64,000 bases of DNA from Octopus vulgaris (lineage: Eukaryota). Shown in pieces: positions 27,925 to 54,233 of this stretch (position 1 is the first letter of the stretch; every line of letters begins with the position of its first letter). Position numbers and translations under genes: made by a program. The notes under the pieces are model-generated. The model was not told where the DNA came from and made no database searches. It saw nothing but the letters and a program-made list of their open reading frames with translations. The stretch covers positions 10,168,001 to 10,232,000 of the forward strand of contig OX597836.1 of the NCBI GenBank assembly GCA_951406725.2. Reading direction: 5' to 3'.

Positions 27925-28513
27925 TATTTCTTTACTACCCACAAGGGGCTAAACATAGAGGGGACAAACAAGGACAGACAAAGGGATCAAGTCGATTACA
28001 TCGACCCCAGTGCGTAACTGGTACTTAATTTATCGACCCCGAAAGGACGAAAGGCAAAGTCGACCTCGGCGAAATTTGAACTCAGAACGTAACGGCAGAA
28101 GAAATACCTATTTCTTTACTACCCACAAGGGGCTAAACAAAGAGGGGACAAACAAGGACAGACAAAGGGATCAAGTCGATTACATCGACCCCAGTGCGTA
28201 ACTGGTACTTAATTTATCGACTCCGAAAGGATGAAAGGCAAAGTCGACCACGGCGAAATTTGAACTCAGAACGTAACGGCAGACGAAAGCCCTATTTCTT
28301 TACTACTCACAAGGGGCTAAACACAGAGAGGACAGACAAAGGGATTAAGTCGATTACATCGACCCCAGTGCGTAACTGGTACTTATTTAATCGACCTCGA
28401 AAGGATGAAAGGCAAAGTCGACCTCGGCGGAATTTGAACTCAGAACGTAACGGCAGACGAAATACTGCTGAGCATTTCGCCCGGCGCCCTAACGTTTCTG
28501 CCAGCTCGCCGCC
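27925..28513 (-). mobile_element. SINE-B1 trimer, 184-bp period, single head
   Basis: Tail ends (tatttcttt) at 27925, 28109 and 28293. Confidence 0.9.
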
Positions 28514-30526: not shown

Positions 30527-32571
30527 GAAATGGCAAACGTTTACGATACAAGAATATTTTACTTAGATTCATCCCCTTTTCTGTTTTGTCTGGGGAGAGC
30601 CATTTTCTTTTTGTGCCTTGAAATGGCAAACGTTTATGATACAAGAATATTTTGGTTAGATTCATCCTCTTTTCTGTTGTGTCTGGGGAGAGCCATTTTC
30701 TTTTGTGCCTTGAAATGGCAAACGTTTATGATACAAGAATATTTTGGTTAGATTCATCCTCTTTTCTGTTGTGTCTGGGGAGAGCCATTTTCTTTTTGTG
30801 CCTTGAAATGGCAAACGTTTATGATACAAGAATATTTTGGTTAGATTCATCCTCTTTTCTGTTGTGTCTGGGGAGAGCCATTTTCTTTTTGTGCCTTGAA
30901 ATGGCAAACGTTTATGATACAAGAATATTTTGGTTAGATTCATCCTCTTTTCTGTTGTGTCTGGGGAGAGCCATTTTCTTTTTGTGCCTTGAAATGGCAA
31001 ACGTTTATGATACAAGAATATTTTGGTTAGATTCATCCTCTTTTCTGTTGTGTCTGGGGAGAGCCATTTTCTTTTTGTGCCTTGAAATGGCAAACGTTTA
31101 TGATACAAGAATATTTTGGTTAGATTCATCCTCTTTTCTGTTGTGTCTGGGGAGAGCCATTTTCTTTTTGTGCCTTGAAATGGCAAACGTTTATGATACA
31201 AGAATATTTTGGTTAGATTCATCCTCTTTTCTGTTGTGTCTGGGGAGAGCCATTTTCTTTTTGTGCCTTGAAATGGCAAACGTTTATGATACAAGAATAT
31301 TTTGGTTAGATTCATCCTCTTTTCTGTTGTGTCTGGGGAGAGCCATTTTCTTTTTGTGCCTTGAAATGGCAAACGTTTATGATACAAGAATATTTTGGTT
31401 AGATTCATCCTCTTTTCTGTTGTGTCTGGGGAGAGCCATTTTCTTTTTGTGCCTTGAAATGGCAAACGTTTATGATACAAGAATATTTTGGTTAGATTCA
31501 TCCTCTTTTCTGTTGTGTCTGGGGAGAGCCATTTTCTTTTTGTGCCTTGAAATGGCAAACGTTTATGATACAAGAATATTTTGGTTAGATTCATCCCCTT
31601 TTCTGTTGTGTCTGGGGAGAGCCATTTTCTTTTTGTGCCTTGAAATGGCAAACGTTTATGATACAAGAATATTTTGGTTAGATTCATCCCCTTTTCTGTT
31701 GTGTCTGGGAAGAGCCATTTTCTTTTTGTGCCTTGAAATGGCAAACGATTATGATACAAGAATATTTTGGTTAGATTCATCCTCTTTTCTGTTGTGTCTG
31801 GGAAGAGCCATTTTCTTTTTGTGCCTTGAAATGGCAAACGTTTATGATACAAGAATATTTTGGTTAGATTCATCCTCTTTTCTGTTGTGTCTGGGGAGAG
31901 CCATTTTCTTTTTGTGCCTTGAAATGGCAAACGTTTATGATACAAGAATATTTTGGTTAGATTCATCCTCTTTTCTGTTGTGTCTGGGGAGAGCCATTTT
32001 CTTTTTGTGTCTTGAAATGGCAAACGTTTATGATACAAGAATATTTTGGTTAGATTCATCCTCTTTTCTGTTGTGTCTGGGGAGAGCCATTTTCTTTTTG
32101 TGCCTTGAAATGGCAAACGTTTATGATACAAGAATATTTTGGTTAGATTCATCCCCTTTTCTGTTGTGTCTGGGGAGAGCCATTTTCTTTTTGTGCCTTG
32201 AAATGGCAAACGTTTATGATACAAGAATATTTTGGTTAGATTCATCCTCTTTTCTGTTGTGTCTGGGGAGAGCCATTTTCTTTTTGTGCCTTGAAATGGC
32301 AAACGTTTATGATACAAGAATATTTTGGTTAGATTCATCCCCTTTTCTGTTGTGTCTGGGGAGAGCCATTTTCTTTTTGTGCCTTGAAATGGCAAACGTT
32401 TATGATACAAGAATATTTTGGTTAGATTCATCCTCTTTTCTGTTGTGTCTGGGGAGAGCCATTTTCTTTTTGTGCCTTGAAATGGCAAACGTTTATGATA
32501 CAAGAATATTTTGGTTAGATTCATCCTCTTTTCTGTTGTGTCTGGGGAGAGCCATTTTCTTTTTGTGCCTT
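30527..32571. repeat. Minisatellite, 22 x 93 bp, near-identical units
   Basis: Unit gaaatggcaaacgtttatgatacaagaatattttggttagattcatcctcttttctgttgtgtctggggagagccattttctttttgtgcctt. The second unit is 92 bp. Confidence 0.97.
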
Positions 32572-34232: not shown

Positions 34233-34502
34233 TCCTTTCTGTTATAGGCTTAAGGCTTGAGGTTAGGGTTAGGGTTAGGGTTAGGGTTAGGGTTAGGGTT
34301 AGGGTTGAAATTTCGGGGAAGGGGATAGTCGAGTACATCGACCTCATCCCCCACTGCACTCAAACTAGTACTTATTTTATCGACCCCGAAAAAAATGCAA
34401 GACAAAGCCGATCTCGGCGGAATTTGAACTGTGAACGTAAAAACGGACGAAATGCCGCTGTGCATTTTTCCCGGACTACTAACCATTCTGCCAGCTCGCC
34501 TC
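34233..34502 (-). mobile_element. SINE-B2 (diverged) containing a telomeric-repeat insertion
   Basis: B core and head at 34330-34502. The tail matches 34933-34965 except for the insertion. Confidence 0.8.
34261..34306 (+). repeat. Interstitial telomeric repeat (TTAGGG)7
   Basis: gg(ttaggg)7tt, perfect units. Confidence 0.95.
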
Positions 34503-41193: not shown

Positions 41194-41820
41194 TATTTCT
41201 TTATTGCCCACAAGGGGCTAAACACAGAGGGGATAAACAAAGACAGACAAACGGATTAAGTCGATTAGATCGACTCCAGTGCCTAACTGGTACTTAATTT
41301 ATCGACCCCGAAAGGTTGAAAGGCAAAGTCGACCTCGGCGGAATTTGAACTCAGAATGTAAAGACAGACGAAATACCTATTTCATTACTACCCACAAGGG
41401 GCTAAACACAGAGAGGACAAACAAGGACAGACAAACGGATTAAGTCAATTAGATCGACCCCAGTGCCTAACTGGTACTTAATTTATCGACCCCGAAAGGA
41501 TGAAAAGCAAAGTCGACCTCGGCGGAATTTGAACTCAGAACGTAACGGCAGACGAAATACCTATTTCTTTATTACCCACAAGGGGCTAAACACAGAGGGG
41601 GCAAACAAGGACCGGCAAAGGGATTAAGTCGATTACATCGACCCCAGTGTGTAACTGGTACTTAATTAACCGACCCCGAAAGGATGAAGGGCAAAGTCGA
41701 CCTCGGCGGAATTTGAACTAGGTATAGTAGAAGACGCTCAGGACGTCAAACAGTAGGACTGAACCCGGAACCATGTGGTTGGGGAAGTAAGCTTCTTACC
41801 ACACAGCCACGCCTGCACCT
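41194..41820 (-). mobile_element. SINE-B1 trimer (184-bp period) capped by a SINE-A head
   Basis: Tail ends at 41194, 41378 and 41562. The sequence switches to an A head at about 41720. Confidence 0.9.
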
Positions 41821-53805: not shown

Positions 53806-53877
53806 AATATATGCAAACTACCGGCTTCGATTACTTTTTTGTATTTTATTTATTGCTATTAAATATTGAAAAGCTCC

Positions 53878-53996
53878 GCTTACGGCCATATCACGTTGAA
53901 AGCACCGGTTCTCGTCCGATCACCGAAGTTAAGCAACGTCGAGCCTAGTTAGTACTTAGATGGGTGACCGCTTGGGAAACCTAGGTGCTGTAGGCG
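53878..53996 (+). rRNA. Full-length 5S rRNA sequence (dispersed copy; gene, pseudogene or SINE head)
   Basis: GCTTACGGCCATATCACG...CGATC..CGAAGTTAAGC...TTAGTACTT.GATGGGTGACCGCTTGGGAA..CTAGGTGCTGTAGGC, about 119 nt. Internal A/IE/C boxes are present, and the terminal helix and the CCTAG/CTAGG helix pair. Confidence 0.93.
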
Positions 53997-54233
53997 TCAC
54001 ACATTTTAACGGCGGTGCATCAGCATGGCCGCAGCTCTGAGCTGAAACTAGAGAGAAAGACTTTCAATATTCAATAGCGTTGTTTTAGAAAAACACTATA
54101 GAAAATGTATTTAAAAAAATAATTTAAATCCAAATTTCTTCGTGACTTTTGGTCCACCCTGGAAACAACGTTTGGAGACAGTAAAAAAGAGAATATTTTC
54201 TTTTACTAGTTTCAGTCATTCGACTGCAGCCAT

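What the first reader, a model, noticed from the sequence alone, without database searches (positions are those of the whole stretch)
53855..54079. Full 5S rRNA fused to the SINE-A 3' tail: candidate 5S-derived SINE (SINE3) with a compensated hairpin
Seen: a complete 5S (53878-53996) is followed by ggcggtgcatcagcatggccgcagctctgagctgaaactaga, homologous to the family-A tail ggcggtgctccagcatggccgcagtcaaatgactgaaacaag. The terminal hairpin differs in sequence but still pairs (cagct-ctg-agctg versus cagtc-aaat-gactg). Established: SINEs borrow a LINE 3' stem-loop for mobilisation, and 5S-headed SINEs are known in a limited set of animals. Inference: two Pol III heads (tRNA and 5S) use the same LINE machinery here. 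A T4 run between the 5S and the tail could give either a 5S-sized RNA or a read-through mobile RNA.
Basis: partly seen in the sequence, partly recalled or inferred. Interest (0 to 1): 0.78.

Follow-up and report, generated by a model that had tools for sequence, protein, structure and literature searches.

The report
LINE tail captures precursor 5S RNA
This is a full 5S ribosomal RNA copy joined to the last 45 bases of a LINE retrotransposon, one of hundreds of such one-off hybrids in this genome (U6 RNA and unprocessed tRNAs get the same kind of tail), likely made when the LINE's reverse transcriptase jumped onto a newly made small RNA, rather than a self-copying 5S SINE family.

Summary
The 5S and the tail are real and the junction is multi-copy, but this is not a SINE3 family. 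The tail is 45/45 identical to the 3' UTR of an endonuclease/RT LINE, not a variant of SINE-A. The 'linker' is the 3' trailer of 5S gene transcripts up to their T-run terminator. Of 94 dispersed 5S copies, 89 are joined to a retroelement, of about ten different kinds; only 7 carry this tail. Junctions are 53 distinct strings in 55 copies, 5S variants follow the trailer (source gene) rather than the partner, and U6 and unprocessed pre-tRNAs receive the same or the sister tail. Best reading: independent chimeric retrocopies, like vertebrate U6/LINE chimeras, likely made by a template jump of the LINE reverse transcriptase. New features: a mollusc-like genome; whole, sense, trailer-bearing 5S; a fixed LINE breakpoint at the base of its 3' double hairpin; fusions to the 5' starts of full-length SINEs, which argue against RtcB ligation. 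28 of 40 such chimeras lack an internal terminator, yet none is seen re-amplified. New variant of a known kind; interest 0.5.

The parts
53878..53996 (+). Complete 5S rRNA copy starting at +1, without the upstream motif of true 5S genes
   Evidence: Rfam RF00001 114.5 bits; 2 differences from the closest array copy; upstream A-rich motif in 38 of 39 array copies and 0 of 33 dispersed copies
53997..54007 (+).
   Evidence: Other chimera linkers equal the trailers of real 5S genes on C4 and C5. This trailer class occurs in 84 dispersed copies, all fused to a retroelement; its parent gene was not found in the assembly
54008..54052 (+). Last 45 nt of the 3' UTR of an EN/RT LINE ('T1'); predicted double hairpin 54010-54031 and 54032-54044
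   Evidence: 45 of 45 identical to L182:6820-6864, 13 nt after the ORF2 stop; Pfam Exo_endo_phos_2 and RVT_1 upstream in L182; fold
54053..54060 (+). Short A/G-rich 3' tail
   Evidence: Sequence; similar A-rich ends in T1 LINE copies
53855..53871 (.). Left arm of a 17-bp inverted repeat flanking the insertion (unexplained; not a TSD)
   Evidence: 16 of 17 complementary to 54062-54078 (E 0.14 within the window)
54062..54078 (.). Right arm of the flanking inverted repeat, in single-copy DNA
   Evidence: 54056-54180 matches only itself in G000

Best explanation
This element is a full 5S rRNA copy with its gene's 3' trailer joined in sense to the last 45 bases of a LINE, one of hundreds of separately formed chimeric retrocopies, likely made when the LINE reverse transcriptase copied its own 3' double hairpin and then jumped onto the oligo-U end of a newly transcribed Pol III RNA. 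Shown: the anatomy, the donor LINE, the trailer identity, the many partners and heads, the unique junctions and the breakpoint hot spot. Inferred: (1) the LINE protein binds the double hairpin and primes at AT-rich or (TA)n sites; (2) once the hairpins are copied it tends to let go, leaving a tail-only insertion or jumping to a free 3'-OH end; (3) the acceptors are unprocessed nuclear Pol III transcripts (pre-5S with trailer, U6 with oligo-U, pre-tRNA with trailer and at times intron), copied to +1; (4) the same jump happens at the 5' end of fully copied SINE RNAs; (5) the products are mostly dead on arrival. Here T4 would end Pol III transcription before the tail, and all dispersed copies tested lack the upstream motif of true 5S genes.
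For: Donor: tail 45/45 identical to the LINE 3' UTR; in the first 30 of 1897 tail sites 20 continue into LINE ORF2 and 1 has 5S. Trailers: array genes on C4/C5 end in the same trailers that appear as linkers. Partners of 94 dispersed 5S copies: SINE-B 5' start 32, tail T2 19, SINE-A-like tails 11, tail T1 7, SINE-C start 6, SINE-D start 3, other SINE pieces 6, other 10. Five of the 10 'other' are LINE or repeat pieces, two of them long LINE stretches (L078, L115); 3 have no partner and 2 are unclear. All 84 pattern-classed partners are in sense. Window's trailer class: 59 SINE-B, 8 T1, 2 T2, 15 other of 84 (by eye). 53 distinct junctions in 55 T1/T2 chimeras; the two shared pairs differ in tail subtype and at 9 5S positions each. 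5S haplotype tracks the trailer (p 0.0002), and the partner adds nothing once the trailer is known (p 0.53; n 54). SINE-B in chimeras has no private site (best p 0.0085 of 113 tests); the nearest neighbour is another chimera in 5 of 26 (pool share 0.34). U6: 22 of 30 loci carry the same partner set, two with the window's tail. Pre-tRNA: 7 of 7 hits have genomic trailers and no CCA, one with a whole intron. Breakpoint: 10 of 30 T1 and 19 of 30 T2 ends stop within 44 nt of the tail core's end, with almost nothing until >110 nt; the first stem begins 2 nt inside the fragment. RtcB needs a cyclic phosphate and a 5'-OH, and a 5'-triphosphate blocked it (PMC6789731, passages).
Against: No biochemistry: jump versus ligation is inferred from junctions. 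That SINE transcripts start with a triphosphate and that pre-5S/pre-tRNA end in 3'-OH is general knowledge, not tested here. TSDs, expected for single-event insertions, were not resolved: the window copy has none (best 6 bp), and the excess of 8-bp or longer direct repeats (36% vs 17% null) is largely (TA)n. The parent gene of the window's trailer is missing from the assembly. 5S haplotype also associates with partner before conditioning (p 0.007). Samples are the first 100 of 241 pattern hits and the best-scoring hits, not all ~1100 5S-like sites. The fixed breakpoint could equally be an RNA cleavage site.
Confidence: 0.72

Rival explanations
1. Same independent chimeras, but joined at the RNA level first: a ligase such as RtcB links the small RNA to a LINE/SINE RNA cut at the base of the hairpin, and the joined RNA is then retrotransposed.
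For: Shown for human U6/L1 (PMC6789731, passages). The sharp breakpoint at the stem base would fit an endonuclease site that leaves a 5'-OH.
Against: 41 of 94 5S partners are SINE 5' starts, which should carry a triphosphate, and that blocked RtcB in the same paper. Acceptors end at variable points in or before the U-run (U6 runs of 3-9 T; 5S trailers cut at many lengths) and include intron-bearing pre-tRNA. Tail-only insertions without any head are common.
Confidence: 0.13
2. A true 5S-headed SINE (SINE3): one or a few master copies of 5S plus tail are transcribed by Pol III and amplified by the LINE.
For: Dispersed, multi-copy, sense 5S head and LINE tail; 28 of 40 T1/T2 chimeras have no T4 between head and tail and could be read through; an automated octopus annotation lists 4 'SINE/5S' families (PMC13282606, supplement).
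Against: 53 of 55 junctions are distinct; heads come from three gene variants; only 7 of 94 carry this tail; U6 and pre-tRNA do the same; head-less LINE ends vastly outnumber headed ones (1897 vs 18), the pattern Kojima expects of independent template switches (PMC4494074, passages); the window copy has T4 before the tail.
Confidence: 0.07
3. Sequential insertion: a 5S retropseudogene landed first and a LINE or SINE later inserted at its T-rich 3' end.
For: Free and 5S-joined SINE-B copies both often have TATA just upstream (23 of 65, 9 of 26), so an AT-rich target preference exists. No TSD ties the two parts together in the window copy.
Against: 89 of 94 dispersed 5S copies have a partner directly at the trailer and all 84 classed ones are in sense; lone 5S retrocopies are rare (3 to 5 of 94); about ten unrelated families would need the same target.
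Confidence: 0.06
4. The downstream sequence is simply the spacer of a tandem 5S gene array, and this is a functional or orphan gene.
For: The 5S is nearly intact and ends in T4.
Against: Only one 5S in the 64-kb window; real arrays have ~507-bp units, a shared upstream motif and no tail; the tail is a LINE 3' end.
Confidence: 0.01

Closest known systems
U6/LINE chimeric retrocopies of vertebrates: U6-L1 in mammals, U6-L2 and U6-Mon-1 in platypus, U6-L1/L2/RTE/AnolisSINE2 in lizard (PMC4476161 and PMC11838501, passages)
   Same: Small RNA 5' of a LINE or SINE 3' part, in sense; each event unique and not self-propagating; stringent LINEs give chimeras with short LINE pieces and short or no TSDs.
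   Different: Invertebrate genome; 5S is a major head (about 1100 5S-like sites; 89 of 94 sampled dispersed copies chimeric); heads are unprocessed precursors; the LINE piece starts at one fixed point; platypus U6 heads are mostly 5'-truncated, whereas many heads here reach +1.
Human 5S/LINE-1 chimeras (PMC11838501, passages)
   Same: 5S rRNA co-inserted with a LINE 3' end.
   Different: Human ones are truncated at about positions 46 or 90 and often antisense; here the 5S is whole at its 3' end, in sense, and keeps the gene's trailer and terminator.
SINE3, 5S-derived SINEs (Kapitonov and Jurka 2003, not read; described in PMC4494074, PMC5786205, PMC3531059, passages)
   Same: 5S head with internal promoter, LINE-derived 3' tail, dispersed copies.
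   Different: No master copy: junctions, heads and tails are mixed freely; internal terminator in the window copy and in 12 of 40 relatives; SINEBase treats copies of cellular RNA as pseudogenes, not SINEs.
'SINE/5S' (4 families, 9.8 Mb) and 'SINE/U-L1' (1 family) labels in an Octopus vulgaris repeat annotation (PMC13282606: parts 1-2 of 3 of the text and its supplement read)
   Same: Labels that could rest on 5S- and U6-headed chimeras like these.
   Different: Table rows only, with no sequences or mechanism in what I read; consensus sequences are on an outside repository I could not see. About 1100 short sites cannot fill 9.8 Mb, so such labels may be 5S fused to a high-copy tRNA SINE (inference).

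Membership tests
SINE3 | 5S rRNA-derived head | tested here: met
   Rfam 114.5 bits
SINE3 | 3' tail shared with a partner LINE | tested here: met
   45/45 to an EN/RT LINE
SINE3 | At least 100 interspersed copies of one structure | tested here: inconclusive
   18 exact junctions; 7 of 94 sampled, so roughly 70-80 for this tail if scaled to 1123 sites; several hundred if all partners are pooled
SINE3 | Copies descend from master elements (shared junction and diagnostic changes absent from the cellular gene) | tested here: not met
   53 of 55 junctions distinct; shared pairs unrelated; haplotype follows source gene
SINE3 | Pol III can transcribe head through tail | tested here: not met
   By sequence only: T4 at 54004-54007 before the tail; 12 of 40 relatives likewise, 28 of 40 open. 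Transcription itself not measurable from contigs
Chimeric retrocopy (U6/LINE type) | Small RNA 5' of a retroelement 3' part, same orientation | tested here: met
   84 of 84 classed 5S partners in sense; U6 22 of 30 loci
Chimeric retrocopy (U6/LINE type) | Each junction unique, no onward amplification | tested here: met
   (32 of 32 SINE-B junctions distinct); sample-based
Chimeric retrocopy (U6/LINE type) | Head-less copies of the same LINE end far outnumber headed ones | tested here: met
   1897 and 3253 exact tail sites; by eye 2 of 30 and 3 of 30 carry a Pol III-type head
Chimeric retrocopy (U6/LINE type) | One TSD pair or one empty site bracketing both parts | tested here: inconclusive
   No TSD at the window copy; excess repeats mostly (TA)n; no empty allele among the listed joints in 4 runs (list cut)
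Chimeric retrocopy (U6/LINE type) | Formation by template switch rather than RNA ligation | not testable with these tools
   Needs in vitro or cell assay; junction anatomy favours a switch
CR1 clade (donor LINE) | RT phylogeny places it in CR1 | not tested
   APE-type endonuclease plus RT shown; the CR1-like label rests on recalled C-terminal motifs; two searches gave no clade

The most novel reading that the evidence does not exclude
This genome is a SINE nursery caught in the act: a family of stringent LINEs has a built-in release point just 5' of its recognition hairpins and from there systematically captures nascent Pol III precursors (pre-5S, U6, intron-bearing pre-tRNA), building hundreds of complete head-plus-tail proto-SINEs. 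tRNA-headed ones can become families while 5S-headed ones stay dead because they leave behind an upstream promoter element, which would explain why SINE3s are rare. The chimeras also preserve a 5S gene variant no longer seen in the assembly.
Probability: 0.35. Interest if true: 0.72.

Novelty: new variant of a known kind. Interest (0 to 1): 0.5.

Why it matters
How a SINE gets a Pol III head on a LINE tail is usually inferred from finished families. Here the intermediates exist by the hundred, with the donor LINEs, source genes and breakpoint all readable, so two open questions become testable in one system: template jump versus RNA ligation (the 5'-start fusions and precursor heads give a test that human U6/L1 does not), and why 5S heads rarely found families even when 28 of 40 chimeras have no terminator in the way. 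It also warns that '5S SINE' and 'U-L1 SINE' labels from automated annotation of such genomes may be pooled chimeras, and offers a fossil record of precursor 3' ends and past 5S gene variants.

Tried and rejected
Tail as SINE-A derivative: rejected, exact match is a LINE. Tail as array spacer: rejected. Parent gene of the window's trailer: not found among 84 hits nor among the listed loose ends in 4 runs (list cut). TSD search: unresolved. First SINE-B subfamily test failed on a too strict filter (3 vs 2 copies); repeated with a shorter reference. Expression: two runs only guessed to be RNA, contigs only; listed loose ends behind the trailer show SINE-B starts, not this tail; no evidence either way. 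Age: contigs of another sample of organism A and of organism B cover 54031 into the 3' flank, but with about 30 letters on the tail side, so only a hint that the insertion is shared. Runs with small shares were not used. LINE clade: solved-structure search gave only L1 and R2, the atlas gave unnamed RT clusters. One fold (L012) hit the wrong stretch and was not used. L239's head has A/B-box-like motifs by eye but no Rfam or ARAGORN call. Scan notes: two look-ups, nothing. Literature: no paper describing such chimeras in cephalopods in searches (0 hits; 0 hits); the library lacks most subscription papers, and Repbase, Dfam and SINEBase sequences could not be searched. Ohshima and Okada 1994 on octopus SINEs was seen only as a reference.

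Full report
Observation. The window holds one 5S, complete at 53878-53996 (Rfam 114.5 bits), followed by an 11-nt stretch ending in T4 (54004-54007), a 45-nt tail (54008-54052) and a short A/G-rich end. The tail resembles the SINE-A tail in its first part and folds into two adjacent hairpins, as does the SINE-A tail. In G000 (2.8 Gb, 227 contigs) all 40 scored hits of the region span 5S start to tail, on many contigs, so the junction is not single-copy. The repeat landscape looks like an octopus; that is my recall, not a test, and I did not tie G000 to an assembly. SINE-B, -C, -D, T1 and T2 are my own labels.

The tail belongs to a LINE. The window's 25-nt tail core has 1897 exact copies. In the first 30, 20 run on into a coding region that reads as the C-terminus of a LINE ORF2, one has a 5S head and one a tRNA-SINE head; the rest are tail-only. 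A long copy (L182) has Pfam endonuclease and RT domains, and its 3' UTR matches the window tail at 45 of 45 positions, starting 13 nt after the ORF2 stop. A sister LINE (T2, 75% identical over 1.5 kb; 3253 exact tail sites) has its own hairpin variant. Among 187 tails in my loci the three main second hairpins (50, 49 and 36 copies) all keep five of five pairs with different sequences. The CR1-like label is from recalled motifs only.

The linker is the 5S gene trailer. True 5S clusters lie on C4 (tandem units of about 507 bp) and C5; 38 of 39 copies share an upstream A-rich motif against 0 of 33 dispersed copies, and none carries the tail. Their 3' trailers, up to the T-run, are the same strings that separate 5S from its partner in dispersed copies. 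The window's own trailer class occurs at 84 sites, every one fused to a retroelement, and no parent gene was found; the array may be unassembled or replaced.

Many partners, unique junctions. An exact 5S 3'-end pattern has 241 hits; I took the 100 listed (C1-C6), set aside 6 in clusters and classed 94: SINE-B 5' start 32, T2 19, SINE-A-like tails 11, T1 7, SINE-C start 6, SINE-D start 3, other SINE pieces 6, other 10. Of the 10, five are LINE or repeat pieces (two long LINE stretches), two unclear, three without partner. All 84 classed partners are in sense. A looser pattern gives 1123 5S-like sites, arrays included; 18 have an exact junction to the window's tail. Among 55 T1/T2 chimeras in my loci there are 53 junction strings, and the two shared pairs differ in tail subtype and at 9 positions of 5S. 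5S body variants follow the trailer as in the arrays (p 0.0002); they also associate with partner (p 0.007), but not once the trailer is fixed (p 0.53; n 54). The 32 SINE-B junctions are all distinct, and chimeric SINE-B copies (26) share no private site against 65 free copies. These samples are not the full set.

Other Pol III RNAs do the same. Of 30 U6 loci (best-scoring of 48), 22 carry partners from the same set, by eye, two of them the window's tail; 8 look like genes or have none. A tRNA-end pattern gave 7 hits, all with genomic trailers, no CCA and the T2 tail; ARAGORN called four tRNA-Leu, one intron-bearing tRNA (called Met; I read it as Leu from its long arm and CAA), one doubtful and none in one. 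The heads are therefore unprocessed nuclear transcripts.

Fixed breakpoint. In the tail samples, 10 of 30 T1 and 19 of 30 T2 copies stop within 44 nt of the tail core's end, then almost none until beyond 110 nt (two T1 values are gap artefacts, and the search patterns set the lower bound). The first stem starts 2 nt inside the window's fragment.

Mechanism. Inferred: the LINE protein binds the double hairpin, primes at AT-rich or (TA)n DNA, copies the hairpins and often lets go there; it then either integrates a tail-only piece or jumps to the free 3' end of a nascent Pol III RNA and copies it to +1. The same jump at the end of a fully copied SINE RNA explains the 41 of 94 fusions to SINE 5' starts. 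RNA ligation, shown for human U6/L1, needs a cyclic phosphate and a 5'-OH and failed with a 5'-triphosphate (PMC6789731, passages), which fits those fusions and the variable U-runs (3-9 T) poorly, though a cut at the stem base remains possible for tail-only partners. Against my reading: no TSD at the window copy, and only a (TA)n-driven excess overall; no expression data of value; no empty site among the listed joints.

Known kin. Vertebrate U6/LINE and U6/SINE chimeras, including those of stringent L2 and RTE elements (PMC4476161, passages), each unique and not self-propagating (PMC11838501, passages). Human 5S/L1 chimeras are truncated and often antisense, unlike these. By Kojima's criterion for telling SINEs from pooled chimeras (PMC4494074, passages) and SINEBase's definition (PMC3531059, passages) this is not a SINE3, although it has a SINE3's anatomy, and 28 of 40 relatives lack an internal T4. 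An octopus annotation lists SINE/5S and SINE/U-L1 rows without sequence or comment (PMC13282606, parts 1-2 of 3 and supplement); its consensus files could bear on novelty and were not visible. My searches found no description of such chimeras in cephalopods. PMC4824008, PMC6472339, PMC4758252 and PMC5786205 were seen as passages and report no molluscan SINE3 in those passages.

Verdict. Observation partly confirmed; SINE3 reading not upheld; a new variant of chimeric retrocopy, abundant and unusually legible. Interest 0.5.

Noticed in passing
window 53855-53871 and 54062-54078: A 17-bp inverted repeat (16 of 17) brackets the insertion in single-copy DNA; a contig of organism B has C>T at 54061, which would lengthen it by one pair. 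Possibly insertion at the tip of a palindrome or an inverted target duplication; not seen outside (TA)n in the other 54 chimeras.
   Followed up: partly
L068, L074, L121, L122, L123, L149: Six of 94 chimeras have an oligo-A linker instead of a gene trailer, as if oligoadenylated 5S was captured; five of the six are joined to SINE-C or SINE-D starts.
   Followed up: no
5' ends of full-length chimeras: G directly before +1 in 15 of 54 copies, often as ATG (9), in AT-rich flanks; may be a non-templated base added by the RT.
   Followed up: no
L249 (same site as L234), L250-L255: Pre-tRNA-Leu retrocopies with trailers, one with its intron, joined to the T2 LINE tail.
   Followed up: partly
L239, about 100 nt upstream of the tail: An unidentified head with A/B-box-like motifs joined to the T2 tail; no Rfam or ARAGORN call.
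   Followed up: partly
L091-L095, L184, L185 (G000 C4 35.23-35.27 Mb; C5 16.41-16.50 Mb): 5S gene clusters of mixed orientation with several trailer and spacer types next to a homogeneous ~507-bp tandem array; the C5 clusters hold two distinct 5S types.
   Followed up: partly
L159-L163 (G000 C1 139.42 Mb): Tandem cluster of five variant U6 genes about 1.1 kb apart.
   Followed up: no
window 30527-32571: 22 copies of a 93-bp unit, 99% alike; two frames have only 2 and 4 stops over 2 kb.
   Followed up: partly
window 27925-28465 and 41194-41719: Two separate arrays of about three copies of the same 184-bp unit.
   Followed up: no
window 34261-34306: Interstitial telomere-type (TTAGGG)n run, 7.7 copies.
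   Followed up: no
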